Assembly: GCA_049509455.1 (NCBI GenBank)
Contig: JBEKZX010000033.1
Span: 1 to 16,327, forward strand
Direction of reading: 5' to 3'
Length of the DNA stretch: 16,327 bases
Source: Conexivisphaerales archaeon
Lineage (GTDB): Archaea; Thermoproteota; Nitrososphaeria; Conexivisphaerales; DTJL01
Below, piece by piece: positions 279 to 11,334 of this stretch. The notes beneath the pieces are model-generated. The model saw nothing but the letters and a program-made list of their open reading frames with translations. It was not told the DNA's origin and made no database searches. Every line of letters starts with the position of its first letter. The first letter of the stretch is position 1. The position numbers and the translations under genes are program-made.

Positions 279-1007
279 CTGGGGGGAAGAGAGACGGCCA
301 AATCGGAACCATCGCTTGAGTTTAATTCTTCGCACCCGTATCTGTCGGAGTTCATCCTAGGGAGCCAGGACGGGCTTGTCGCCCTGCTAGGCGTCCTATT
401 GGGGGTTTCCGCGGCGACGAGCGATGTGAGGATAGTCTACGCTGCGGCTCTCGCAGCTCTTTGCGCCGAATCGATTTCGATGGGCGCTGCCGCCTACACT
501 TCTACTGAAGCCAGGCGTCGGCACTATATGAAGAAAGTCTCTCGGGAGCTGCTTGAGATGAAAGAGGTTCCCGCCTCTGAGCTTGAGGAGGTCCGAGATA
601 TCTTGAAAGGATGGGGTTACGAAGGCAAAGACATCGATGACGTGGCCGACCACATCGCGTCGAACCCTAAAGCGATGCTGGAAGTCATGATGTCCTTCGA
701 ACATAAGCTCGCTCCGGTCGACAAGGGCGCGGCCAGGCGCAGCTTCGCAGTCGTGCTGGCCTCCACTGTTTTCGGCTCGATCATACCGTTGATTCCGTTC
801 TTCTTCGTTACGGCAGCGACGATATCTTCCGGGGCGATCGCGTCAGCGATTCTTGGTGGGGCGGTGCTCTTTTTCATCGGTGCATACGAAGCGAAAACGA
901 CGGTGGGCTCTATATGGTGGAGCGGCTTAGAGATGACGTTAATCGGACTATCAGCCGGGTTCGTGGGCTACCTGATTGGACACCTCATTGGGGCCATTCC
1001 CGTATGA
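279..1007 (+). CDS. VIT1/CCC1-family iron/manganese transporter (start codon uncertain)
   Basis: The ORF-track frame (399..1007) stays open upstream to the TAG at 276-278 and encodes the family TM1 motif YLSEFILGSQDGLVALLGVLLGV. It continues with AESISMGAAAY, a Glu-rich cytoplasmic domain (ELLEMKEVPASELEEVRDIL) and three C-terminal TM helices. There is no ATG/GTG/TTG before 399; CTG at 279 is used here as a provisional start. Confidence 0.88.
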   Translation: MGGRETAKSEPSLEFNSSHPYLSEFILGSQDGLVALLGVLLGVSAATSDVRIVYAAALAALCAESISMGAAAYTSTEARRRHYMKKVSRELLEMKEVPASELEEVRDILKGWGYEGKDIDDVADHIASNPKAMLEVMMSFEHKLAPVDKGAARRSFAVVLASTVFGSIIPLIPFFFVTAATISSGAIASAILGGAVLFFIGAYEAKTTVGSIWWSGLEMTLIGLSAGFVGYLIGHLIGAIPV

Positions 1008-1300
1008 CCTCACAGGCATCTGGGACCAACTGACGGCCATGGAGACAGAGTTGGTTTCCTCCTTACGTGAGTCTGCCTGTCGTCACCTGAGGGGCCCGGG
1101 TGGACGTGTATCCGCTTCTAAGCGGGACTGACGTTTGGCCGGCTCAAAGTGGAACTACAAGGCATACTCTGATGTGAAGATATCATCTGATGCTTCGATG
1201 GGTAACGACACGGCAAGATATCACTTGAGACTTGAAGCGCACGCCAAGACTATCATGAGTGCGGGGATAAAGGTCCCACCGTTCCGGTCAGCCAAGCCCT

Positions 1301-1322
1301 GAACCAGAATCAAATCTGGTTC
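1301..1322. repeat. Perfect 8-bp inverted repeat GAACCAGA-N6-TCTGGTTC in the VIT1-znuA intergenic region
   Basis: Read directly from the sequence; function unknown. Confidence 0.6.
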
Positions 1323-1537
1323 TGGTCCTGCCGGCTACGCCTCAACAGTACGGGGCACACCTTTGGACAATTGATTCTTCGCGCCCAAGAGGTCGAGGCC
1401 GGCGCCGTCCGCAGAGAGTCCTGAAGCGCCCTAGACGCGATGAAGGGAGTGGGACCACAATCCGACGCGATGCTCCGTGCCTCTCCCGGGACAAATCGAT
1501 CCTGCTGGACATCAGCATCCATTCAGACTGCATCTGC

Positions 1538-1597
1538 TTTAATAACATACGTTGAAGTCAGGAGCCATCTTTAATAATGACTTAGTAATAGTTATTA
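1538..1597 (+). promoter_or_regulatory. AT-rich promoter/operator region of the znuACB operon
   Basis: TTTAATAAC (1538-1546) and TTTAATAAT (1570-1578) are TATA-like. An inverted repeat TAATAA-N14-TTATTA spans 1572-1597, with an inner TAATA-GT-TATTA (1586-1597), about 20 nt before the ATG. Confidence 0.55.
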
Positions 1598-1618
1598 GAA
1601 CGTCAGGACGAGTCGAGT

Positions 1619-2605
1619 ATGATGGGAGCAGAGGGCACAGGAGAAGCCAGGACCGGACGCCTGTGGGCGGTTATCGTCATCCTTTTGATAATGACCGCGA
1701 CGTTCGGAGCATACGTGTTAGTCTATACGAGAGGCTCGACGTCGTCCCCCGGCCCCAGTTCCAATACCCCCACGCTCAAGGTCCTGGCCTCCTTCTTCCC
1801 CCTCCAAGACTGGGCCCTGAACGTCGGAGGTGTCAAGGTCAGCGTTTCGCTCCTGGTTCCCGTAACAGAGGACATCCACGATTTCGAGCCGACCTCGGCA
1901 GCCATAGAGGCCATTGCGTCGGCGAACGTCCTCATACTGAACGGGGCAGGCCTGGAGCCTTGGGCGCAGCAGGCGATAGCCGCTGCCGACAATCCAAACC
2001 TTGTGGTGGTGGACTGCAGCCAGAACGTCACCCTCATAACGGTCCCGCCGCAGTTCCAGGTGGCCAATCGGGCCATCGACCCCCACATCTGGCTCGATCC
2101 GGTCGATGCGATGACCATGGTTCAGAACATATTGAAAGGGCTCATCAAGGCGGACTCCTCTGACGCGGCCTACTTCACGGCCAACGCCAACACATACGAC
2201 GCGAAGCTCGAATCGTTGGACCAGCAGTTCAAGAGCTTGGCCAGCTCGAACCTCGCTACGAGGGACTTCGTCACCTTCCACACGGCCTTCGGCTACCTGG
2301 CCCAGCAGTACAACTTGACGCAGATTCCGGTCTTCGGTCCCTTCGAAGAGGAGCCCACTGCTGCTGACATCACCAACGTCGTCAACGCGATAAACCAGAA
2401 CCACCTACTCTACGTCGGCTACGAATCGCTTGAGAACGCGGCCGTGCCCGAAGCGATAGCGAGCCAGACCAACGCCACGCTTGTCCCGATGAACCCGATA
2501 GAGGGTCTCACGCCCCAAGAGCAGGCGCAAGGGCAGACCTACCTGACCCTGATGGCGCAGAACCTGCTGGTCCTAACGTTGGCTCTGAACCACTTGGGAG
2601 GTTGA
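1619..2605 (+). CDS. znuA: Metal ABC transporter solute-binding protein, ZnuA/AdcA-type (cluster A-I), N-terminally membrane anchored
   Basis: Motifs DIHDFEP (H87), DPHIWLDP (H156), FHTAFGY (H221) and MNPIEG (E295) give a 3His+Glu site like AdcA. It has an N-terminal TM anchor, a Ser/Thr/Pro linker and N-x-T sequons (NVT, NLT, NAT). There is no His-rich loop. Confidence 0.9.
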   Translation: MMGAEGTGEARTGRLWAVIVILLIMTATFGAYVLVYTRGSTSSPGPSSNTPTLKVLASFFPLQDWALNVGGVKVSVSLLVPVTEDIHDFEPTSAAIEAIASANVLILNGAGLEPWAQQAIAAADNPNLVVVDCSQNVTLITVPPQFQVANRAIDPHIWLDPVDAMTMVQNILKGLIKADSSDAAYFTANANTYDAKLESLDQQFKSLASSNLATRDFVTFHTAFGYLAQQYNLTQIPVFGPFEEEPTAADITNVVNAINQNHLLYVGYESLENAAVPEAIASQTNATLVPMNPIEGLTPQEQAQGQTYLTLMAQNLLVLTLALNHLGG

Positions 2606-2631
2606 TTGGCTTGAAAGAGGGGAAGCCGGAA

Positions 2632-3450
2632 ATGGAAAGCGTAAAGTCCGCCGAATCGATTCATGACGGCGGACGGCAGAACTTGGCTCAGGGTTCCGCT
2701 CAGCCCGTCGTGGAACTCCATGACGTTCAGGTGACGTACCCAGGAGATATCGTCGCCCTCGAACACATCTCCCTGAAGGTACAAGCAGGCGACTTCCTCG
2801 GCCTCATCGGCCCGAACGGCGCCGGCAAGTCAACTCTCCTCAGCGTCATAGTTGGGCTCGTGAAGCCCACTGCAGGCTACGTCAAGCTTTTCGGAGCTCC
2901 CGTGTCGGCTGAGAGCCTCAGGAAGGTAGGGTTCGTGCCTCAGACGCCTCATACCAAGGACTGGAACTTCCCGGCGACAGTCTACGAGACCGTGCTCTTG
3001 GGGAGAGTTCCCCTCTCCAATCACTTTCCTTGGTTCGACGCGGAGGATCACGCCAAGGCGGCCCAGGCCCTGGAGCGCCTGGGCATCGGCGACCTCAGAC
3101 GAAGGAGCATCAACGAACTCTCAGGTGGACAGTTGCAGCGGGTGTTCACGGCGAAGGCCCTGGTTGGCGACCCCCAGTTGCTGATATTCGATGAGCCCAC
3201 CAGCGGGGTGGACGCTCATGCTAAGAGCGAGTTCTACTCCATACTTGAGCATCTGAACAAGGACCTTGGAATCACGACGATCCTCTCGCTGCATGATATC
3301 GGAGTGGTGACGAGGCTTGCGAAGACGATAGTCTGCGTCAACAGGACGCTGTACTTCGACGGGAAGACGAAGGACTTTGATGCGGGCTCGATACTATCCA
3401 GGGCTTACGGGTACCCCATAGAGGTCGTGGAGCATGGAGAGCATCCTTAG
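2632..3450 (+). CDS. znuC: Metal ABC transporter ATP-binding protein, ZnuC-type (alternative TTG starts at 2602 or 2611)
   Basis: Walker A GPNGAGKST, VGFVPQ Q-loop, signature LSGGQLQR, Walker B LLIFDEPT and H-loop LSLHD. It lies between the SBP and permease genes. Confidence 0.92.
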   Translation: MESVKSAESIHDGGRQNLAQGSAQPVVELHDVQVTYPGDIVALEHISLKVQAGDFLGLIGPNGAGKSTLLSVIVGLVKPTAGYVKLFGAPVSAESLRKVGFVPQTPHTKDWNFPATVYETVLLGRVPLSNHFPWFDAEDHAKAAQALERLGIGDLRRRSINELSGGQLQRVFTAKALVGDPQLLIFDEPTSGVDAHAKSEFYSILEHLNKDLGITTILSLHDIGVVTRLAKTIVCVNRTLYFDGKTKDFDAGSILSRAYGYPIEVVEHGEHP

Positions 3451-4297
3451 CTCCCTCCTCGGCTACCTGTCCGCCGGCTTTGTGCAGCGGGCGTTCATCA
3501 TAGGAATCGTGGTCGCCCTCCTCAGCTCGATGCTGAGCGTCTACATCGTACTCAAGAGGCTTTCGCTGATAGGGGATGGGCTGGCCCATACGGCCTATGG
3601 CGGCATAGCCATCGGCCTGGCGGTGGGCAGCCTCTTCCCGTCTCTCTCCGGCCTTAACCCGTACTGGATAGGAGGCGCGATAGTCGTCATGGGCTCGATC
3701 ATGATCACCAAGGTGATCCGTTCCCGGAGGCTGGCAGGAGACGCGGCCGTGGCGGTCTTCCTCGAGCTGGGCCTCGCTTCGGGGATATTCATCACGAGCG
3801 TCACCCTGAACTACGGGTTCGCCCTGAACAGCCTGCTCTTCGGGAGCATCCTGCTGGTGACATGGCAGCAGATCTACGCTGCCATCGTCGTGACCATCGC
3901 GGCCGCCGCCTTCCTCATCTTCTTCTACAAGGAGCTCCTCTACACCGTGTTCGACGAAGTGCAAGCTCAGGCGGCGGGCATCGTGACTTGGAAGTACGAT
4001 TACCTCCTCGCTGTGCTTGCGGGGATAGCCGTGGTCGTCTCGATCCCGATAGTCGGGATCCTCCTCATATCGGCGCTCCTGGTGCTGCCCGCCCTGTCGA
4101 GCATGCAGGTAGCCCGCTCCTTCAAGCAGACCATCTTCATCTCCCCGGTGTTCGGCGTGGCGGCGGTGGTCCTTGGGCTTCTCCTTTCGCTGCTGATGCC
4201 GAACGCAGCTCCGGGGGGCGCCATCGTCTTGGTAGCATTGGCGATGCTTCTGGTCGTGATGCTCCTCAAGAAGCTCGTAGTGTTTCTGTCTCAGTGA
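3434..4297 (+). CDS. znuB: Metal ABC transporter permease, ZnuB/ABC-3 family
   Basis: Polytopic hydrophobic protein with the ABC-3 motifs LKRLSLIGDGLAHTAYGG, LFGSILLV and VGILLISALLVLPA. Overlaps znuC by 17 nt. Confidence 0.92.
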   Translation: MESILSSLLGYLSAGFVQRAFIIGIVVALLSSMLSVYIVLKRLSLIGDGLAHTAYGGIAIGLAVGSLFPSLSGLNPYWIGGAIVVMGSIMITKVIRSRRLAGDAAVAVFLELGLASGIFITSVTLNYGFALNSLLFGSILLVTWQQIYAAIVVTIAAAAFLIFFYKELLYTVFDEVQAQAAGIVTWKYDYLLAVLAGIAVVVSIPIVGILLISALLVLPALSSMQVARSFKQTIFISPVFGVAAVVLGLLLSLLMPNAAPGGAIVLVALAMLLVVMLLKKLVVFLSQ

Positions 4298-4325: not shown

Positions 4326-4709
4326 TCAGATGATCAGAAGTCTCACGCTGCGTATGCCGTCCTCCTTTTGAAACTCCTTGGTCATGGAGGTCACGTAGGA
4401 GCCGGCTCCCTCCAAGAGGAAGAGCTCGACGCATCTCTTCTTGGCGGTCTTGTTGTGGATGTGGGTGCGCACGATGCCGTCGAACTTGTGCTTGATTCGC
4501 GTCACCGCCTCCTCGTCCTCCTCGTTGTGGGTGAGCACGACCACGGCGCTCACGTTGCCCGTTATGGAGCTCTTGTCCCTGACATCCTGAAGGAGCAGAC
4601 GGATGCCGGACCTAACGAGCTCGGACCGGCCGGTGAAGCCCAGCGACTTCTGGACTTCGTCCATCTCCTTTATCATCTGCTCTGGGAACGAAAGGCTAAC
4701 GATAGGCAC
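4326..4709 (-). CDS. NikR-family (ribbon-helix-helix + ACT-like) metalloregulator with a non-canonical metal site
   Basis: N-terminal RHH (MPIVSLSFPEQMIKEMDEVQKSLGFTGRSELVRSGIR) and C-terminal NikR-like domain (KHKFDGIVRTHIHNKTAKKRCVELF). GTG start; convergent with znuB. Confidence 0.88.
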   Translation of the reverse strand: MPIVSLSFPEQMIKEMDEVQKSLGFTGRSELVRSGIRLLLQDVRDKSSITGNVSAVVVLTHNEEDEEAVTRIKHKFDGIVRTHIHNKTAKKRCVELFLLEGAGSYVTSMTKEFQKEDGIRSVRLLII

Positions 4710-4719
4710 GACAGAACCA

Positions 4720-4762
4720 GTTATTAAAAGGGGTATATATTGTTATGTTGTTCTTAGTAACA
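4720..4762 (-). promoter_or_regulatory. Promoter/operator region of the NikR-like gene
   Basis: On the minus strand, ATATATAC (4733-4740) is about 28 nt upstream of the GTG, consistent with a leaderless transcript. TTTAATAAC (4720-4728) lies between the TATA and the start. An inverted repeat TGTTA-N12-TAACA spans 4741-4762. Confidence 0.5.
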
Positions 4763-5038
4763 TGCTAGCCGGCTCAGCAGGGCCAACAATGCGATGGCGA
4801 ACCGTCTTCCCGTCAGAAACCAAACGAATCAAATCAAAGCCAGGGGAAGCATCACACACATTGCATGTATGACGACGAAGACGTTGGCGGCAGCTCCAAA
4901 TTGAAGGACGTCCGAGATGAGGACCACGGCGCTAAGGATAATCAAGAGCTGATCGGAGATGCAAAGGCCTCCGGATTGGGTGCGTCCGCCAGCAACAGAA
5001 TCCCTGATCCTACCGGTTTCCGGCATCTGGGCCCCCAC
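4754..5038 (-). pseudogene. Possible small membrane protein interrupted by an in-frame TGA at 4829-4831 (or an intact 65-69 aa ORF ending at 4829)
   Basis: Translation ...ISDQLLIILSAVVLISDVLQFGAAANVFVVIHAMCVMLPLALI*FVWFLTGRRFAIALLALLSRLACY*. Codons in 4870-4950 (gtc, ctc, atc, gcc, ttc) resemble those of the real genes in the window. No family recognised. Confidence 0.3.
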
Positions 5039-5048
5039 TATCGAAGGG

Positions 5049-5258
5049 TCAAGGCTCCACTTGAGGGGTGCTTACCTGCAGGATACGAAGCGATGAGCCT
5101 CCATCGTTCGGCCGCCTGACGTGCTGCATGTCCTCCACCTCTTTGAAGCCCGAGGGGTGTTCCCGTTCAACCATCCCGACTGATATGTGCCTTGAGGGCG
5201 GTCCAGTGGCGCCGCTGGCTATAGGCTCCATGCGGTAGGCGGCCACAGCGCTTGGCAC
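5049..5258 (-). CDS. Hypothetical 69-aa protein, possibly translationally coupled to the ESCRT-III gene
   Basis: The GTG start overlaps the ESCRT-III TAG by 1 nt (TAGTG). Codon usage is plausible; no recognisable motif. Confidence 0.25.
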   Translation of the reverse strand: MPSAVAAYRMEPIASGATGPPSRHISVGMVEREHPSGFKEVEDMQHVRRPNDGGSSLRILQVSTPQVEP

Positions 5259-5899
5259 TACTGGCCGTATCCCTGTTCCTCGGTGTACTTGAAACGAGGG
5301 ACCTCGGGTAACTTGTCCTTCATCCTTTCTTCGGCTAGCCCTTCTGCTTCCCTCAGGATCCTTTCGGCGTCCTCGTTGGCAGCTTCGAAGTTGACGCCGG
5401 ATTCGCCTACGATCCCGGCATCGCTGATGACGCTACTGAGGAGATCGCCGACCTCAGATATCTCCCGCTCTGCCTCGGGGATGACTCCTTGAAGCCCTGG
5501 CCTTACGTTCTTCAAGATGACCTCGGCAGGTGCCAGTATGGTCACTACGTCGCCCAGATCCGTGGCCGTCTTCAGGCGCTGCAGGATGCCTTCGAAGGCT
5601 ACCTGCACCGATGAGATGAGCCTTTCGAGCTTCCTGAGCTCCACGAGCTCGTTGGCGTAGACGGCAGCGTGCTGACCGTCACGGGTTTGGATGTAGTGGA
5701 CCACTTTGGAGAAGATGACGGCGTCTCGGTCTCGCAGCTTGCTGCTGGTCGAGTCAAGCAAGGCTATGTAAGACTGGAGGCCCCTGCTGGCGGTCTCTAT
5801 CTTGGGTTTGAGCGGTCCGTCCGACCTGAAGAACCCGCTGAGCCTGTCCTTCAGGCCAGGCTCCTCCGAGGCTTTCCATTTCCTGCTGAACTCTGCCAA
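5258..5899 (-). CDS. cdvB: ESCRT-III / Snf7-family cell-division protein, thaumarchaeal CdvB-like
   Basis: From TTG at 5899: MAEFSRKW...GPLKPKIE...KLRDRDAVIFSKVV...ANELVELRK...RLKTATDLGDVV...IPEAERE...ERILREA...KLPEVP. This matches the pattern I recall for Nitrosopumilus/Nitrososphaera CdvB paralogues. The ORF-track extension to 5995 looks spurious. Which paralogue (CdvB, B1, B2 or B3) cannot be decided by eye. Confidence 0.85.
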   Translation of the reverse strand: MAEFSRKWKASEEPGLKDRLSGFFRSDGPLKPKIETASRGLQSYIALLDSTSSKLRDRDAVIFSKVVHYIQTRDGQHAAVYANELVELRKLERLISSVQVAFEGILQRLKTATDLGDVVTILAPAEVILKNVRPGLQGVIPEAEREISEVGDLLSSVISDAGIVGESGVNFEAANEDAERILREAEGLAEERMKDKLPEVPRFKYTEEQGYGQ

Positions 5900-6066
5900 C
5901 TCTACGGCACCTGGAACGTTTTCGATATCGTAGAGGCTTATTATGACTTGGGTAACCGGCAACGAGCGCTCAGCAGTGACTCCCTTGGAAGGCACTCTCT
6001 GCCAGCCTTAGAGGCACATCCGAAGCCGTCGCCTCCTAGGTTGAACCGTCGCCATGGGCTGATCCT

Positions 6067-6571: not shown

Positions 6572-7249
6572 TCAGGCGGCGTTCGCGGTGCCTTCGGCGG
6601 GCAGGGGCTTGGACTTCCTTCTCCAGAAGGCGACGCGACCTGGCCTCCTAATCTTGAGTAGCGTCACGAAGAATACCGCCAGGAGTATCTTGGAGCCGTA
6701 GTTGAGCGCGAGGGCCACATGGTAGGGGTCGGCGGTGTGCAGGACGGGTGGAATGAAGAAGCCGCTCGCAAAGTATTGCGGGAAGCCGAAGAGGACCCAA
6801 ACAAGCATGCTGAGGATGAACGCAGCGAGTGCGCAAGCGCTGACCCTCTTGAAGGAAAGATGCTTCCTGACGAGCAACAACGGGATGACCATGGTAAGCT
6901 CGACGACGAGGAACTTGACATCGGTTCCCTTGAGGAACGGGAACTGGAGGGAGTATATCGGAAAGGTGAAGTGATAGATGATCTCGTAAGCCTCGAGGAA
7001 GGCGTTGGCGAAGAGGACGCCGAGGATGATTGAGTCCCCTGTTCCACGGCCTTCGCGCGCGAACTGATACTGCGACAGGAGGTAGAGGACGCTGGCTGAG
7101 CCCACCGAGAAGGGGCTGGTACCGCCAAGGGGCGAGATCCAGAACTGTTGGCGAGGAATAAGGTATAGCGAATACAGTAGGGCCAGGAGGGCGACCACTC
7201 GGAACGCCCACACGGTGAGGAACGCCGGTCCTCTGCGGATGAGCTGCAA
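6572..7249 (-). CDS. Hypothetical polytopic membrane protein (about 6 TM), family not recognised
   Basis: 225-aa ORF with coding-like codon usage, about six hydrophobic segments, basic cytoplasmic-type termini and a TTG start. Confidence 0.8.
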   Translation of the reverse strand: MQLIRRGPAFLTVWAFRVVALLALLYSLYLIPRQQFWISPLGGTSPFSVGSASVLYLLSQYQFAREGRGTGDSIILGVLFANAFLEAYEIIYHFTFPIYSLQFPFLKGTDVKFLVVELTMVIPLLLVRKHLSFKRVSACALAAFILSMLVWVLFGFPQYFASGFFIPPVLHTADPYHVALALNYGSKILLAVFFVTLLKIRRPGRVAFWRRKSKPLPAEGTANAA

Positions 7250-7994: not shown

Positions 7995-8420
7995 TCAATC
8001 GGATTCCGTCTTGAGGAAGGATACTCTGAGCTGAAGCACGCCCCTCAAATTCCTGAGGTTTCGTTCTAAGACTTTCATCTCCCCGAACCGCCCACGGAGG
8101 ACTATTATCTTCAGACATCGCTTGGAATCCATGTGTACGTGTATGGAAGAGGTGATTAGCCTCATACTATGGTGCTCCAAGTCCGTCAGCGCCGCATCAA
8201 TCCCCCTCGTTTCGTGGTCATAAAGGACCAAGAGCGAACCGGTGATCGGGCTGTCGTCTCGTAGAGTCTGCGCCTGCTCCGTTATGAAGTCTCGCATCGT
8301 CGCCTGCAGGGCCTTCGAGCGATCCTTGAAGCCAGCCCTGGTCGCCGCCTCGTCGAACTTGGACAATAGCTCGGGTGGAAGTGACAGGCTCACTCTGGCC
8401 ACACCTCCTCTTGGGTGCAT
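7995..8420 (-). CDS. nikR: Nickel-responsive regulator NikR (canonical Ni site)
   Basis: RHH strand ARVSLSLP and RSKALQ helix. Metal site EHH-x9-HVH-x5-C gives H83/H94/H96/C102, with the same +11/+13/+19 spacing as E. coli H76/H87/H89/C95. ATG at 8420 has GGAGG 7 nt upstream; alternative TTG at 8444. Confidence 0.92.
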   Translation of the reverse strand: MHPRGGVARVSLSLPPELLSKFDEAATRAGFKDRSKALQATMRDFITEQAQTLRDDSPITGSLLVLYDHETRGIDAALTDLEHHSMRLITSSIHVHMDSKRCLKIIVLRGRFGEMKVLERNLRNLRGVLQLRVSFLKTESD

Positions 8421-8448
8421 CAATCTGCCTCCGGTATTACTCAAGCAA

Positions 8449-8464: not shown

Positions 8465-8492
8465 GTATTACCAACGACAAAGATTTTAATAC
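8465..8492. promoter_or_regulatory. NikR operator GTATTA-N16-TAATAC overlapping the TATA box of nikMN
   Basis: Perfect 6-bp inverted repeat with a 16-nt spacer, the same geometry as the E. coli NikR operator GTATGA-N16-TCATAC. The right arm overlaps TTTTAATA (8484-8491), about 28 nt before the GTG at 8516. Confidence 0.8.
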
Positions 8493-8515: not shown

Positions 8516-9592
8516 GTGCACATTCCCGACGGATACCTTGGACCACTTACGTGCGTCTTCTTCTTCGTCATCATGATTCCCTTGTGGTTCCTCGCGTCCA
8601 GGAAGGTCGAAGGGAGCCTCAAGACCAGGCAGATACCATGGCTCGCCTTCGGCGTGGCCTTCTCGTTCATCATCATGATGTTCAACTTCCCCGCCCCCGG
8701 CGGGACGACGGGCCATGCAGTGGGCGCGGCCATCCTGGCCCTGACCCTGGGCCCGTGGTGCGGCTTCCTAGGGGTCACTGGCGCGTTGTTGATTCAGGCG
8801 CTCCTGTTCGGTGACGGGGGGATAACGACATTCGCAGCTAACTCTTTCAACATGGGCCTCGTAATGTCCTTCGTCAGCTACTTTGTCTACAGGGTGCTGG
8901 CTGCGCGCGCACCTCTCCTCTCTCGCCGCCGTTGGCTGGCTGCGGCCGCATCCGCATATATCGGCCTGAACGCCGCCGCCTTCTGTTGTGCTGTGGAGCT
9001 CGGACTCCAGCCCTTGCTGTACCACACCGCGGACGGCACTCCACTGTATGCTCCCTTCCCGCTGTCGGTGACCATTCCTGCCATGTTCATATCGTACGGG
9101 CTCATCTTCGGGTTAGTCGACGCGGCGGCGACTGGTTTCCTAGTGTCCTATCTGTTACGGTCCGACCCTTCCCTGCTGGCCCCCAGCATCACGAGGAGCA
9201 TCCCGAGCCTTTCAGCCAGCGTGCCCGTCGCGAAGGTGGAGGGGATGACATCGTCCGATGGCCGTTCCTGGACCAGGAGGCTTTGGATCCTCCTGGGCGC
9301 GCTGGTGGTGCTGGTCCCTCTGGGCCTCCTCGCCCCGGGCGAGGCCTTCGCCGAATGGGGGGCTAGCAAGCTGGAGTCTCTGGTCAGGTTCGCTCCTGCT
9401 GGGCTCACGGGCATGGAGGGACTGTATAGCGCTCCTATGGCGGGCTACAGCCTGCCGGGGCTTGCCAGCTTCACGTCGCTGAGCCTGGCATACGTGCTCT
9501 CGGCCGCCGTGGGCACATCCGTCCTCGGCCTCCTTTTGTTTGGGTGGTACAGGATCCGCTCTAAGGGGGAGGGGGCCCAACGCGATTCCTGA
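8516..9592 (+). CDS. nikMN: ECF nickel transporter S component NikM fused to a NikN (PDGLE-like) domain
   Basis: N-terminal metal-binding MHIPDGYL (NikM-type rather than the MHIMEG CbiM-type), GGTTGHAVG and LLFGDGGITT. The C-terminal two-TM NikN-like domain follows a linker. Adjacent to nikR. Confidence 0.88.
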   Translation: MHIPDGYLGPLTCVFFFVIMIPLWFLASRKVEGSLKTRQIPWLAFGVAFSFIIMMFNFPAPGGTTGHAVGAAILALTLGPWCGFLGVTGALLIQALLFGDGGITTFAANSFNMGLVMSFVSYFVYRVLAARAPLLSRRRWLAAAASAYIGLNAAAFCCAVELGLQPLLYHTADGTPLYAPFPLSVTIPAMFISYGLIFGLVDAAATGFLVSYLLRSDPSLLAPSITRSIPSLSASVPVAKVEGMTSSDGRSWTRRLWILLGALVVLVPLGLLAPGEAFAEWGASKLESLVRFAPAGLTGMEGLYSAPMAGYSLPGLASFTSLSLAYVLSAAVGTSVLGLLLFGWYRIRSKGEGAQRDS

Positions 9593-10517
9593 ATGGTTGA
9601 AGCAGGGATCAGCCACCGGTCCCTGTCCACCCTCCACCGCCTCCGGCCCAGGCAAGAAGAGCACTCTAGACTGGATGATAGGAGCCTTCGCCAGTTTCTT
9701 CAGTGAGTCCAGCTATTCGGAAGGATACGCAAGGGCGGAAGGGCTGCTGCAGTCCGTCGATCCGCGCTTCAAGCTCGTGGGAATGCTGGCCCTCCTCGTG
9801 TGCGTCATCTTCGTCACCCGCGTGGAATGGGTGCTGGCCGTCATCGCCGTCACCTTGCTCCTGGCGGTCGCCTCGAGCGTAAGGCTCGGTTACTATCTGA
9901 AGAGGGTCTGGCTCTTCGTTCCACTGTTCACCTTGGTCATCGCAGCGCCAGCCATGTTCAGCTTCGTAGTCCCGGGGAAGCCTCTTCTTGTGCTTTTGAC
10001 AAGGGGGCAGGTTCTGGGCCCACTGGTGTCCCCCTGGACGATAGCGTTGACGGTCCAAGGTGTGACCGGCGCGATCCTCTTCGTCATGAGGACTGGCGCT
10101 GCCGTATCGCTCGTCGTGCTTCTGGCTATGACGACCCCCTGGACTGACCTGCTGGCCTCGCTCGAAAGCCTGAAGGTCCCCAGGGCCTTCGTCATGGTAC
10201 TCGGGATGACCTACAGATACGTCTTCGTCCTCGTCGGAATCGCACAGGATATGTCCTTGGCGATGAAGAGCAGGATGCTGAGGCCCGAGCGGACCGGGGA
10301 CATGAGGAAGCGGCTGGGCTCCATCATCGGAGTTCTGTTCCGTCGCTCGATGAACATGAGCGAACTTGTCAACCTGGCCATGATCTCCCGGGGTTACGAC
10401 GGCAGGGTGAGGAAGGCCACGGCCTTCCGATCCGAGCCGTTCGACTGGGCATTTCTAGGCTTCCTCATCATGATCGCACTCATCCTCCTGACAATTCGCA
10501 ACGTCGCGGTGATATGA
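9585..10517 (+). CDS. nikQ: ECF nickel/cobalt transporter T component NikQ/CbiQ (start uncertain: TTG 9540, ATT 9585 or TTG 9597)
   Basis: GLLQSVDPRFKL, LKRVWLFVPLF, LAMTTPWTDLLASL, MTYRYVFVL and the Arg-containing coupling motifs AMKSR and AMISRGYDG. Confidence 0.9.
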   Translation: MPEWLKQGSATGPCPPSTASGPGKKSTLDWMIGAFASFFSESSYSEGYARAEGLLQSVDPRFKLVGMLALLVCVIFVTRVEWVLAVIAVTLLLAVASSVRLGYYLKRVWLFVPLFTLVIAAPAMFSFVVPGKPLLVLLTRGQVLGPLVSPWTIALTVQGVTGAILFVMRTGAAVSLVVLLAMTTPWTDLLASLESLKVPRAFVMVLGMTYRYVFVLVGIAQDMSLAMKSRMLRPERTGDMRKRLGSIIGVLFRRSMNMSELVNLAMISRGYDGRVRKATAFRSEPFDWAFLGFLIMIALILLTIRNVAVI

Positions 10518-10518
10518 C

Positions 10519-11334
10519 ATGGCCCAAGAAGGAGAGCCCGTCTACCGGCTCGACGGTGTCTGCTATGACTATGCCGGAGGCCGTCCCGCGCTCAGGAACG
10601 TCTCCATGGAAGTCAAGCAGGGGGACTCCATCTCCATACTGGGAGCGAACGGATCTGGGAAATCGACGCTCCTCAAGCTGATGGACGCTCTGATCTTCCC
10701 CTCGCGGGGGACCATCAAAGCCTTCGGGTCTCCTCTGACCGAAGGAGGAATGGAGCTGAACAGAAGTGAGTATGCCCGCTATTTCAGACGTAAGGTGGGG
10801 ATGGTGTTCCAGGACGCCGATTCTCAGCTCTTCTCGCCCGTGGTCTGGGAGGAGGTGTCCTTCGCTCCTTTCCAGCTAGAGTTGGACCAGGGCGAAGCGC
10901 AGAGGCGTGTAGACGACGTCCTCTCGCTCCTGGGGATATTGAGCCTCAAAGACAGGAGCCCTCAGGCGTTGAGCCAAGGTGAAAAGAGAAAGGTGGCTAT
11001 TGCGGCCGTCCTCTCATCGGCTCCCGACGTCCTCCTGCTGGACGAGCCCAGCGCGGACCTCGACCCCCGCACTCGCGTTTGGCTACAGGACTTCCTCAGG
11101 GAGCTGAATCAGGGAGGCAAGACCATCGTGACGGCTACGCATGACCTGGAGCTAGCCTACGAGACCTCCAACCGCTGCATAATCCTCGACGAGCAGCACA
11201 GGATGGTCGCCCAAGGTCAGACGGAGGAGCTCCTTGAAGACACTGACCTTCTCCTGAGAGCCAATCTCATTCACGAGCATGCGCACAGGCATGGCCCCCT
11301 GTCCCACTCTCATCCGCACGCGCATCCAGAATAG
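10519..11334 (+). CDS. nikO: ECF nickel/cobalt transporter ATPase NikO/CbiO
   Basis: Walker A GANGSGKST, VGMVFQDADSQLF, signature LSQGEKR, Walker B LLLDEPS and ATHD. His-rich C-terminal tail. Confidence 0.92.
   Translation: MAQEGEPVYRLDGVCYDYAGGRPALRNVSMEVKQGDSISILGANGSGKSTLLKLMDALIFPSRGTIKAFGSPLTEGGMELNRSEYARYFRRKVGMVFQDADSQLFSPVVWEEVSFAPFQLELDQGEAQRRVDDVLSLLGILSLKDRSPQALSQGEKRKVAIAAVLSSAPDVLLLDEPSADLDPRTRVWLQDFLRELNQGGKTIVTATHDLELAYETSNRCIILDEQHRMVAQGQTEELLEDTDLLLRANLIHEHAHRHGPLSHSHPHAHPE

What the first reader, a model, noticed from the sequence alone, without database searches (positions are those of the whole stretch)
4326..4709. NikR paralogue with a re-wired metal site beside a Zn-type ABC importer: candidate zinc-sensing NikR (Zur substitute)
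Seen: relative to the first His, the ligand pattern is H74, H83(+9), H85(+11), K87(+13), C93(+19), whereas the canonical nikR in this same window has H/+11 H/+13 H/+19 C. The His equivalent to E. coli H89 is replaced by Lys, and a new His appears two residues before the H87 equivalent. The DNA-reading beta strand (PIVSLS) lacks the Arg found in the canonical copy (ARVSLS). The gene is convergent with a znuACB operon whose SBP has a 3His+Glu Zn-type site. Known: the square-planar H76/H87/H89/C95 site gives NikR its Ni selectivity, and bacteria typically regulate znu with Zur/AdcR. Inference: NikR duplicated and diverged into a Zn (or Mn/Fe) sensor with its own operator. I recall similar THxH-x7-C proteins in Thaumarchaeota annotated simply as NikR, but I know of no functional characterisation.
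Basis: partly seen in the sequence, partly recalled or inferred. Interest (0 to 1): 0.78.

Follow-up and report, generated by a model that had tools for sequence, protein, structure and literature searches.

The report
NikR-like regulator of archaeal zinc uptake
This small gene encodes a relative of the nickel sensor NikR that, in ammonia-oxidising archaea and several other archaeal groups, sits beside zinc-type importers behind one conserved DNA site, so it most likely switches zinc uptake off; that would give a 'nickel-only' sensor family a second metal, but no experiment has tested it.

Summary
Window 4326-4709 (-) encodes a 127-aa NikR-fold protein with H61, H74, H83, H85, K87 and C93. Lys replaces the E. 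coli H89 ligand, and a new His lies two residues before the H87 equivalent.

The signature holds in 114 of 115 close homologues and in all Nitrososphaeria orthologues read.

In at least 111 of 139 Nitrososphaeria genomes carrying it, the gene lies within 3.5 kb of a ZnuA-type binding-protein gene. The window's binding protein has a His/His/His/Glu site and matches solved zinc binders best.

A 9-bp palindrome, GTTAWTAAC, forms a three-box module (spacing 32 and 21 bp) at the znuA promoter and two boxes at the regulator's own promoter. The same module occurs in Methanobacteriaceae, Bathyarchaeia and Aenigmatarchaeota.

The reading needs correction. The link to ZnuABC or ZIP importers belongs to a much older archaeal clade, many of whose members keep the canonical His3Cys set, so the Lys87/His83 change did not create the link.

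Kaster et al. (2011) proposed a zinc-responsive NikR homologue for methanogens. This scan reached the same reading before on other archaeal DNA (Poseidoniales, Thermoplasmatota, Micrarchaeota).

The sensed metal is inferred, not shown.

The parts
4326..4709 (-). NikR-like regulator gene (127 aa, GTG start), with H61, H74, H83, H85, K87, C93
   Evidence: (PF08753, 41.4 bits)
4720..4728 (-). Operator box C' (TTTAATAAC on the gene strand), 11-19 nt upstream of the GTG and downstream of the TATA box
   Evidence: 14.9 bits. The same position (-17 to -20) recurs in other lineages
4734..4741 (-). Probable TATA box of the regulator gene (AATATATA on the gene strand); inferred
   Evidence: a TATA-like element lies between the two boxes in all lineages read
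4753..4761 (-). Operator box B' (GTTACTAAG on the gene strand; degenerate), 33 nt from box C'
   Evidence: 7.4 bits; this pair ranks fifth genome-wide
1538..1546 (+). znuA promoter box (TTTAATAAC), -81 from the ATG
1570..1578 (+). znuA promoter box (TTTAATAAT), -49 from the ATG
1591..1599 (+). znuA promoter box (GTTATTAGA; weaker), -28 from the ATG, at or next to the TATA position
   Evidence: stronger copies sit at the same offset in G065, G063 and G057
1619..2605 (+). znuA-type substrate-binding protein with an N-terminal membrane anchor and a His87/His156/His221/Glu269 site
   Evidence: (PF01297, 226.8 bits)
2602..3450 (+). ABC ATPase (znuC-like)
3434..4297 (+). ABC-3 permease (znuB-like)

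Best explanation
The gene encodes a metal-dependent transcription repressor of the NikR fold (ribbon-helix-helix DNA-binding domain plus ACT-like metal-binding domain). It controls the neighbouring Zn-type ABC importer znuACB and its own gene. Each ribbon-helix-helix dimer is proposed to read one 9-bp palindromic box, GTTAWTAAC. Two boxes 21-22 bp apart match the 22-bp half-site spacing of canonical NikR operators, and a third box lies 32-33 bp away. The boxes flank or overlap the TATA and start regions, so a bound tetramer would block assembly of the archaeal pre-initiation complex. The most likely effector is Zn(II): when zinc is sufficient, the holo-protein binds and shuts off uptake, the role Zur or AdcR plays in bacteria. 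Shown here: the fold, the conserved residue signature, the conserved gene neighbourhood, the conserved box module, and the Zn-type ligands of the transporter's binding protein. Inferred: tetramer formation, binding to these boxes, repression rather than activation, and zinc as the sensed metal. Which residues bind the metal is open. H61, H83, H85 and C93 are invariant in the Nitrososphaeria branch. H74 is replaced by Leu in one family. In a regular beta-hairpin, H83 is probably too far from C93 to share one ion with it, so the site may be H83/H85/E95 or H74'/H85/C93.
For: Fold: PF08753 scores 41.4 bits. The AlphaFold2 model has pLDDT 92.3 and Foldseek gives TM 0.82 to Ni-bound P. horikoshii NikR and to the H. 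pylori NikR-DNA complex. Signature: conserved in 114 of 115 close homologues and in 31 orthologues from loci. Neighbourhood in 201 Nitrososphaeria genomes: 139 carry the gene (at least 87 bits); in at least 111 of these a PF01297 gene lies within 3.5 kb. Of those, 99 are divergent with a median 217 bp between the matches, 7 convergent and 5 co-directional. Outside the class: 59 of 61 Methanobacteriaceae loci have ZnuA within the locus, 54 of them adjacent and divergent. ZnuABC or ZnuA also lies next to the Bathyarchaeia relative P0128, to P0134, to the relative in locus L118 and to P0206. A ZIP transporter lies next to P0162, P0172 and the relatives in loci L119 and L123 (Aenigmatarchaeota). 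Binding proteins: all 21 read have His/His/His at the first three ligand positions and 18 have Glu at the fourth. Several carry His/acid-rich loops. The window's binding protein matches the Zn binders YcdH (153.6 bits), AdcA (120.7) and ZnuA (114.6) better than the Mn/Fe binders (96 bits or less). Operator: TTAWTAAC occurs twice in the window, at the two promoters, against 0.09 expected. The only cluster of two or more TTAWTAA sites in the 2.05-Mb genome is the znuA promoter. With a weight matrix built only from loci of other phyla, the znuA pair ranks first genome-wide and the other two pairs of this locus rank fourth and fifth. The three znuA boxes keep their offsets (32 and 21 bp) in three congeneric genomes whose flanking sequence is otherwise unalignable. 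Boxes at about -72, -50 and -18 from the regulator's start recur in Methanobacteriaceae, Bathyarchaeia, Aenigmatarchaeota and Nitrosopumilaceae. Paralogue logic: the same window holds a canonical NikR with its own GTATTA-N16-TAATAC box and cbiMNQO, so nickel is already covered. The own genome has no DtxR-family match, and full-length Fur-family proteins were found in 4 of 51 sampled genomes of the class.
Against: No experiment exists. The metal is inferred only from the transporters, and ZIP and cluster A-I importers include Mn/Fe carriers. Most of the wider clade keeps the nickel-type His3Cys set, which is compatible with nickel sensing. The own genome holds one Fur-family protein of unknown specificity. 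Some close relatives are not next to any metal transporter: P0049, P0029, P0133, and G034, where no ZnuA was found and no boxes precede its ZIP gene. Single TTAWTAA sites also serve as TATA-like elements 20-45 bp upstream of many genes of this genome, so the box nearest znuA may be partly a promoter element. The genomes counted are close kin, so the tallies overstate independence.
Confidence: 0.58

Rival explanations
1. It is still a nickel-responsive (or nickel/cobalt-responsive) NikR. It controls this importer either because the ZnuA-like system also carries Ni or Co, or as cross-regulation between metals.
For: Three of the four canonical ligands are kept, and most of the wider clade keeps all four. 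One relative, P0136, sits next to a nicotianamine-synthase-like gene; from general knowledge, the opine metallophore systems related to that enzyme family carry Ni, Co and Zn. A 2024 review states that NikR proteins sense nickel only (PMC11672702, section 3.2.8).
Against: The window already has a canonical NikR with its own operator and a CbiMNQO/NikMNQO importer. The binding proteins have AdcA/ZnuA-type His3Glu sites and His-rich loops. The pair is nearly universal in ammonia oxidisers, and from general knowledge many of these have no known nickel enzyme apart from an optional urease. Lys at the H89 position removes one ligand of the square-planar nickel site.
Confidence: 0.12
2. It senses Mn(II) or Fe(II), and the importer is a Mn/Fe (MntABC/SitABC/TroABC-like) system. 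The protein would then stand in for the missing DtxR/MntR regulator.
For: No DtxR-family gene was found in the own genome. NCBIfam scores for Deinococcus MntC and MntA are close to those for AztC and AztA. TroA-like His3+Asp proteins can bind Mn and Fe (general knowledge). A VIT1 Fe/Mn exporter gene lies just upstream.
Against: The third ligand is His in all 21 binding proteins read, whereas Mn binders have Glu there. The best solved matches are zinc proteins. Four relatives sit next to ZIP transporters.
Confidence: 0.1
3. The Lys87 branch no longer uses a transition metal. Its ACT-like domain binds another small ligand, or the protein acts as a constitutive or pH-dependent repressor.
For: Position 87 is highly variable in the wider clade (H, K, N, D, E, S, T, C, R, Q). 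H74 is Leu in one Nitrososphaeria family. ACT-like domains commonly bind small molecules, and H. pylori NikR also responds to pH (PMC11672702).
Against: H61, H83, H85 and C93 are invariant across orthologues that are only 38-54% identical, which is typical of a metal site. The regulated genes are metal importers.
Confidence: 0.1
4. The adjacency has no regulatory meaning. The AT-rich boxes are ordinary promoter elements and the regulator acts elsewhere.
For: TTAWTAA sites act as TATA-like elements elsewhere in this genome. Some relatives are not beside transporters.
Against: The neighbourhood is kept in divergent, convergent and co-directional arrangements and across several archaeal phyla, with two unrelated transporter families. 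Box spacing and offsets are kept in GC-rich genomes whose flanks have diverged. One box lies between the TATA box and the start codon, where a TATA box cannot act.
Confidence: 0.04

Closest known systems
NikR of E. coli, H. pylori and Pyrococcus horikoshii (PDB 1q5v/2hza, 2ca9/6mrj, 2bj1/2bj7)
   Same: The same two-domain fold: ribbon-helix-helix plus ACT-like metal-binding domain (TM 0.82; PF08753). His and Cys are conserved at three of the four ligand positions. Operator half-sites lie about 22 bp apart. It sits beside a metal importer and is probably autoregulated.
   Different: Lys at the Ec H89 position and a new invariant His at the Ec T85 position. Ile instead of Arg as the first base-reading residue. 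It scores below every NCBIfam NikR cut-off (62.5 against 111). It has 9-bp palindromic GTTAWTAAC boxes in a three-box module instead of a 6-N16-6 dyad. Its partner is ZnuABC or ZIP rather than NikABCDE or CbiMNQO.
MTH603 / MTBMA_c09830, the NikR homologue beside ZnuABC in Methanothermobacter (Kaster et al. 2011, PMC3087415)
   Same: I did not fetch or compare the MTH603 or MTBMA_c09830 sequence itself. The Methanobacterium and Methanobacteriaceae relatives I read (P0129 and loci L061-L116, L120-L125) fall in the same wider clade and have the same divergent ZnuABC neighbourhood and the same three-box module. [quoted passage not shown]
   Different: The Methanobacteriaceae branch keeps the canonical H74/H85/H87/C93 set with Gln at position 83. 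The window's Nitrososphaeria branch has His83 and Lys87. Neither has been characterised.
Zur (Fur family) and AdcR (MarR family), the bacterial zinc-uptake repressors
   Same: The proposed role is the same: the zinc-loaded repressor sits on the promoter of znuABC/adcABC-type importers.
   Different: The folds are unrelated. There is no FUR or MarR domain in this protein, so the likeness is one of function only.
DtxR-family ZntR/MntR regulators predicted for archaeal ZIP and TroA-type importers (Leyn and Rodionov 2015, recalled from memory and not read here)
   Same: They are archaeal metal-uptake regulators proposed by comparative genomics to control ZIP and cluster A-I importers.
   Different: They belong to a different protein family. 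No DtxR-family gene was found in this genome.

Membership tests
NikR family (Pfam NikR_C + RHH) | C-terminal ACT-like NikR metal-binding domain | tested here: met
   PF08753 scores 41.4 bits against a cut-off of 22. Foldseek's top hits are all NikR structures.
NikR family (Pfam NikR_C + RHH) | N-terminal ribbon-helix-helix DNA-binding domain | tested here: met
   Pfam RHH_1 did not reach E 0.01. However, the NCBIfam NikR models align residues 4-126, the model shows two helices (10-23 and 28-47) after the N-terminal PIVSLS segment that aligns with NikR's DNA-reading strand, and full-length TM is 0.82 to DNA-bound HpNikR.
Nickel-responsive NikR proper (NCBIfam equivalogs TIGR02793, NF002815, NF003381) | Score above the curated equivalog cut-off | tested here: not met
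   37.6 against 175.45, 48.5 against 83, and 39.4 against 105; the best subfamily model gives 62.5 against 111. The canonical copy in the window also falls short, but only slightly (82.9 against 83; 98 against 105).
Nickel-responsive NikR proper | Square-planar His3Cys ligand set (Ec H76', H87, H89, C95) | tested here: not met
   H74, H85 and C93 are present, but the H89 position is Lys87. This residue is present in 114 of 115 close homologues and in all Nitrososphaeria orthologues read.
Nickel-responsive NikR proper | Sits with and regulates nickel uptake genes through a 6-N16-6 type dyad | tested here: not met
   The neighbours are ZnuA-type ABC importers. The GTATTA-N16-TAATAC dyad lies at the other paralogue's cbiMNQO promoter and is absent from 1500-1620 and 4710-4800.
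Nickel-responsive NikR proper | Obligate homotetramer; Ni(II)-dependent DNA binding | not testable with these tools
   This needs biochemistry.
Archaeal ZnuABC/ZIP-associated NikR-like clade (unnamed; MTH603 type) | Ile/Val-Ser-Ser reading strand, His61, Gln/His83, His85 and Cys93; placement inside the clade on a tree | tested here: met
   (FastTree of 142 sequences; support values not examined).
Archaeal ZnuABC/ZIP-associated NikR-like clade (unnamed; MTH603 type) | Adjacent Zn-type importer and GTTAWTAAC box module | tested here: met
Zur (Fur family) | FUR domain | tested here: not met
   No FUR match in P0001. The single FUR gene of the genome lies on another contig.

The most novel reading that the evidence does not exclude
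A pan-archaeal branch of the NikR family is a zinc sensor, the functional counterpart of Zur. Its Nitrososphaeria sub-branch, a near-universal core gene of ammonia-oxidising archaea, has moved one metal ligand along the beta-strand (His83 gained, His89-equivalent changed to Lys), which changes the geometry of the sensing site. This would overturn the view that NikR proteins sense nickel only. It would also name the missing zinc regulator of organisms that mostly lack Fur-family proteins.
Probability: 0.5. Interest if true: 0.75.

Novelty: new variant of a known kind. Interest (0 to 1): 0.62.

Why it matters
[quoted passage not shown] A large archaeal branch wired to zinc importers would give the family a second metal. 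It would also offer a natural experiment in how one scaffold changes selectivity, because branches with the canonical His3Cys set and branches with Lys, Asn or Asp at one ligand position all sit beside the same transporters.

In ammonia-oxidising archaea the gene is routinely annotated 'nickel-responsive regulator' and taken at face value; one recent paper, for example, draws nikR beside urease in a pathway scheme (PMC12774514). Re-reading it as the zinc-uptake switch would change how metal limitation in these globally important nitrifiers is interpreted.

The predicted operator (GTTAWTAAC boxes 21-22 and 32-33 bp apart) makes the hypothesis directly testable.

Tried and rejected
(1) Complex prediction with four copies of the protein plus four Zn gave no verdict. 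It is not used as evidence either way.

A single-protein scan with P0129 was used instead.

(3) Search for more regulon members in the own genome. After the locus itself, the best box pairs lie upstream of an Lrp/AsnC-type regulator (C97:54084) and in the RFC/MCM region (C108:13456). They look like ordinary AT-rich promoters, so I do not claim them.

(4) No boxes were found upstream of the ZIP genes of G034 and G119, so no trans-regulated ZIP is shown in Nitrososphaeria.

(5) I tested whether the 600-bp non-coding stretch upstream of znuA holds a remnant regulator gene or an RNA. The two small ORFs show no likeness to the regulator, and there is no tRNA and no Rfam match.

(6) A gapped alignment that places H83/H85 on Ec H87/H89 (HMMER against H. 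pylori NikR) was considered. I rate it less likely than the ungapped one, but it is not excluded without a structure.

(7) Literature searches found no functional study of this clade. The only relevant text is the one-sentence proposal in Kaster et al. 2011.

The geometry argument rests on secondary structure only.

Full report
**Anatomy**

The window is a metal-homeostasis neighbourhood of a Conexivisphaerales-like Nitrososphaeria genome (close homologues named by their sources; genome 2.05 Mb, 95.5% complete). In order, it holds these genes:
- VIT1, 399-1007 (+)
- znuA-type binding protein, 1619-2605 (+)
- ABC ATPase, 2602-3450 (+)
- ABC-3 permease, 3434-4297 (+)
- the NikR-like gene, 4326-4709 (-)
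- an unassigned ORF, a CBS-domain gene, a membrane protein and a thioredoxin
- a canonical nikR, 7995-8444 (-)
- cbiM(N)-cbiQ-cbiO, 8516-11334 (+)
- threonine-pathway genes

**The observation**

The translation shows H61, H74, H83, H85, K87 and C93. The canonical copy has H91, H102, H104 and C110, that is +11, +13 and +19.

- MAFFT aligns the two without gaps from H74 to G101.
- HMMER does the same against P. horikoshii NikR.
- On this alignment Lys87 occupies the E. coli H89 position, and His83 occupies a position that is Ser or Thr in canonical proteins.
- HMMER's alignment to H. pylori NikR is gapped instead and places THIH on THIH.
- The equal H74-C93-G101 spacing and the 3-residue beta3-beta4 turn of the model favour the ungapped reading.
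- The reading strand is PIVSLS against ARVSLS.

**Family and fold**

- Pfam NikR_C scores 41.4 bits.
- All NCBIfam NikR models match over nearly their full length, but far below their cut-offs.
- AlphaFold2 with alignment A1 gives pLDDT 92.3. The strands are 52-62, 80-88, 92-102 and 119-126, so H83, H85 and K87 lie on one face of beta3, and C93 and E95 lie on the neighbouring strand.
- Foldseek's best matches are NikR structures only, with TM 0.82 to Ni-bound PhNikR and to DNA-bound HpNikR.

The protein is therefore a NikR-fold protein that fails the tests for nickel-type NikR proper.

**Conservation**

- 420 close homologues were found, and those that carry a source name are named Nitrososphaeria-type archaea (Conexivisphaerales, Nitrososphaerales, Thaumarchaeota).
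- 114 of 115 full-length ones carry H-x8-HxHxK-x5-C.
- In a sample of 201 genomes of the class, 139 have an orthologue at 87 bits or more (160 have some match at E up to 1e-5, weaker NikR-family hits included). The Nitrosopumilaceae-like family has a match in 112 of 115 genomes and the Nitrososphaeraceae-like family in 14 of 14.
- In orthologues only 38-54% identical, H61, H83, H85, K87 and C93 never change.
- H74 is Leu in one family (f11), and position 86 is often Cys.
- One genome of the sample (G131, locus L023) is unpublished. It contributes one row to these tallies and one sequence. No claim depends on it.

**Neighbourhood**

I combined the coordinates in a script.
- At least 111 of the 139 genomes have a PF01297 gene within 3.5 kb of the regulator.
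- 99 of these are adjacent and divergent (median 217 bp between the matches), 7 are convergent as in the window (its own genus among them), and 5 are co-directional.
- For 18 genomes the ZnuA rows were not printed, so 111 is a lower bound.
- Exceptions exist. P0049 and P0029 (70-72% identical) and G034 have the regulator without an adjacent importer.
- The genomes are kin, so these counts are not independent events. Three different gene arrangements argue for selection on the linkage.

**The importer is zinc-type**

- The window's binding protein matches B. subtilis YcdH (153.6 bits), S. pneumoniae AdcA (120.7) and Synechocystis ZnuA (114.6) better than MntC, YfeA or PsaA (96 bits or less).
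- It has His, His, His and Glu at the four ligand positions.
- The same three His residues are found in all 21 regulator-adjacent binding proteins read; 18 of the 21 have Glu at the fourth position.
- Several of them carry His/acid-rich loops. One (L053) has a repeat with 13 His.

**Operator**

TTAWTAAC occurs exactly twice in the window, at 1539-1546 (+) and 4720-4727 (-), against 0.09 expected.
- The znuA promoter has boxes at 1538, 1570 and 1591, with spacing 32 and 21 bp.
- The regulator's promoter has boxes at 4720 and 4753 (33 bp apart), with a TATA-like element between them.
- The proximal box lies 11-19 nt upstream of the start codon, where a TATA box cannot act.
- In the whole genome the only cluster of two or more TTAWTAA sites within 70 bp is the znuA promoter.
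- A weight matrix built only from loci of other phyla ranks the znuA pair first, and the other two pairs of this locus fourth and fifth, among all correctly spaced pairs in 2.05 Mb.
- In three congeneric genomes the three znuA boxes keep their offsets (-87/-55/-34, -80/-48/-27 with a weaker middle copy read by eye, and -83/-51/-30), while the flanks are unalignable.
- The same module, at about -72, -50 and -18 from the regulator's start, is present in Methanobacteriaceae, Bathyarchaeia (GC-rich background), Aenigmatarchaeota, an ANME-1 relative (with a longer second spacing) and Nitrosopumilaceae.
- The 21-22 bp spacing equals the centre-to-centre distance of canonical NikR half-sites. One such site, GTATTA-N16-TAATAC, sits in this window at 8465-8492 in front of cbiM.

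A caution applies. Single TTAWTAA sites serve as TATA-like elements 20-45 bp upstream of many genes here, so the box nearest znuA may double as a promoter element.

**The wider clade**

An exhaustive HMMER search found 459 representative clusters. In an alignment of 128 full-length representatives:
- a large group shares Ile/Val3-Ser5-Ser7, His61, Gln or His at 83, His85 and Cys93;
- position 87 is His in most and Lys, Asn, Asp, Glu, Ser, Thr, Cys, Arg or Gln in others.

On a FastTree tree (support values not examined) the Nitrososphaeria His83/Lys87 proteins form one sub-branch. It lies next to a group from Methanobacteriaceae, ANME-1, Bathyarchaeia and Aenigmatarchaeota.

Neighbourhood spot checks outside the class gave these results:
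- ZnuABC or ZnuA: P0129, P0128, P0134, P0206 and L118
- ZIP: P0162, P0172, L119 and L123
- a nicotianamine-synthase-like gene: P0136
- nothing metal-related: P0133 and L117

In Methanobacteriaceae, 59 of 61 loci hold ZnuA, 54 of them adjacent and divergent.

The link to zinc-type importers therefore predates and outreaches the Lys87 change.

**Other regulators**

- The own genome has two NikR-family genes, one Fur-family gene on another contig with no metal gene beside it, and no DtxR match.
- In 51 sampled genomes of the class, only four have a full-length Fur-family match; the rest are weak helix-turn-helix hits.
- For most of the class, then, a Zur is not found. For this genome it cannot be excluded.

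**Literature**

- Kaster et al. [quoted passage not shown]
- A 2024 review states that NikR proteins sense nickel only (PMC11672702).
- No paper in the library characterises the clade or mentions it for ammonia oxidisers. There the annotation 'nickel-responsive regulator' is used as given (PMC12774514).
- Earlier notes of this scan reached the same reading for Poseidoniales, Thermoplasmatota and Micrarchaeota. They include a TTAATAA-N15-TTATTAA site, which matches my 22-bp box pair. I treat these notes as leads.

**Mechanism and what remains open**

The best-supported reading is a metal-loaded repressor that occupies boxes flanking the TATA and start regions of znuA and of its own gene.
- Zinc is the most likely effector because two unrelated zinc-type transporter families are the recurrent partners, and because nickel is already covered by the canonical paralogue in this window.
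- The metal site cannot be assigned. In a regular hairpin, H83 lies across from F97 and about two rungs from C93, so H83 and C93 probably do not share one ion.
- Candidate ligand sets are H83/H85/E95, or H74'/H85/C93 with Lys87 as a charged neighbour.
- This, the oligomeric state, the direction of regulation and the metal all need experiments.

**Verdict**

This is a new variant of a known kind: a NikR-fold regulator with a different regulon, a different operator and probably a different metal. It was hypothesised once in 2011 and has not been characterised.

Noticed in passing
window 1008-1618: About 600 bp with no convincing ORF, tRNA or Rfam match lies upstream of znuA, yet it carries the full three-box module that elsewhere lies between divergent znuA and regulator genes. 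It looks as if the regulator gene was moved from an ancestral divergent position to the 3' side of the operon, taking a copy of two boxes with it.
   Followed up: partly
window 8465-8492: GTATTA-N16-TAATAC, a dyad with E. coli NikR operator geometry, lies between the canonical nikR and cbiM. The window therefore holds two NikR paralogues with two distinct operators.
   Followed up: partly
L013, L014, L016, L017, L019 (family f11 of the class): In this Nitrososphaeria family the H74 (Ec H76) ligand is Leu and position 86 is Cys (THLHCK), while H61, H83, H85 and C93 are kept. This hints that H74 is dispensable for the site in this branch.
   Followed up: no
L053 (G120:C2), znuA-type gene: The binding protein has an 84-residue loop made of EEHSGE repeats (13 His, 37 Asp/Glu), an extreme form of the His-rich loop of zinc-specific ZnuA proteins. 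This genome also has two copies of the regulator.
   Followed up: no
L128:3115-3912 (-): One clade member (P0136) is divergent from a nicotianamine-synthase-like gene (PF03059), a possible metallophore link for this regulator family.
   Followed up: no
G000:C108:38262-38609 (L004:1450-1887): The single Fur-family gene of the genome (145 aa, two CxxC pairs) lies between a metallophosphoesterase-like ORF (not tested) and an acetyltransferase-like ORF (not tested), with no metal transporter beside it. Its specificity is unknown.
   Followed up: partly
window 5258-5995 (-) and 6572-7249 (-): Two ORFs (245 and 225 aa) between the two NikR loci have no Pfam match at E up to 0.001.
   Followed up: no
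L041 (G034:C19) and L132 (G034:C9): A relative in the same family has the regulator, with boxes in its own promoter, but no ZnuA gene was found in the genome. Its only ZIP gene has no boxes, so the regulator's target there is unknown.
   Followed up: partly
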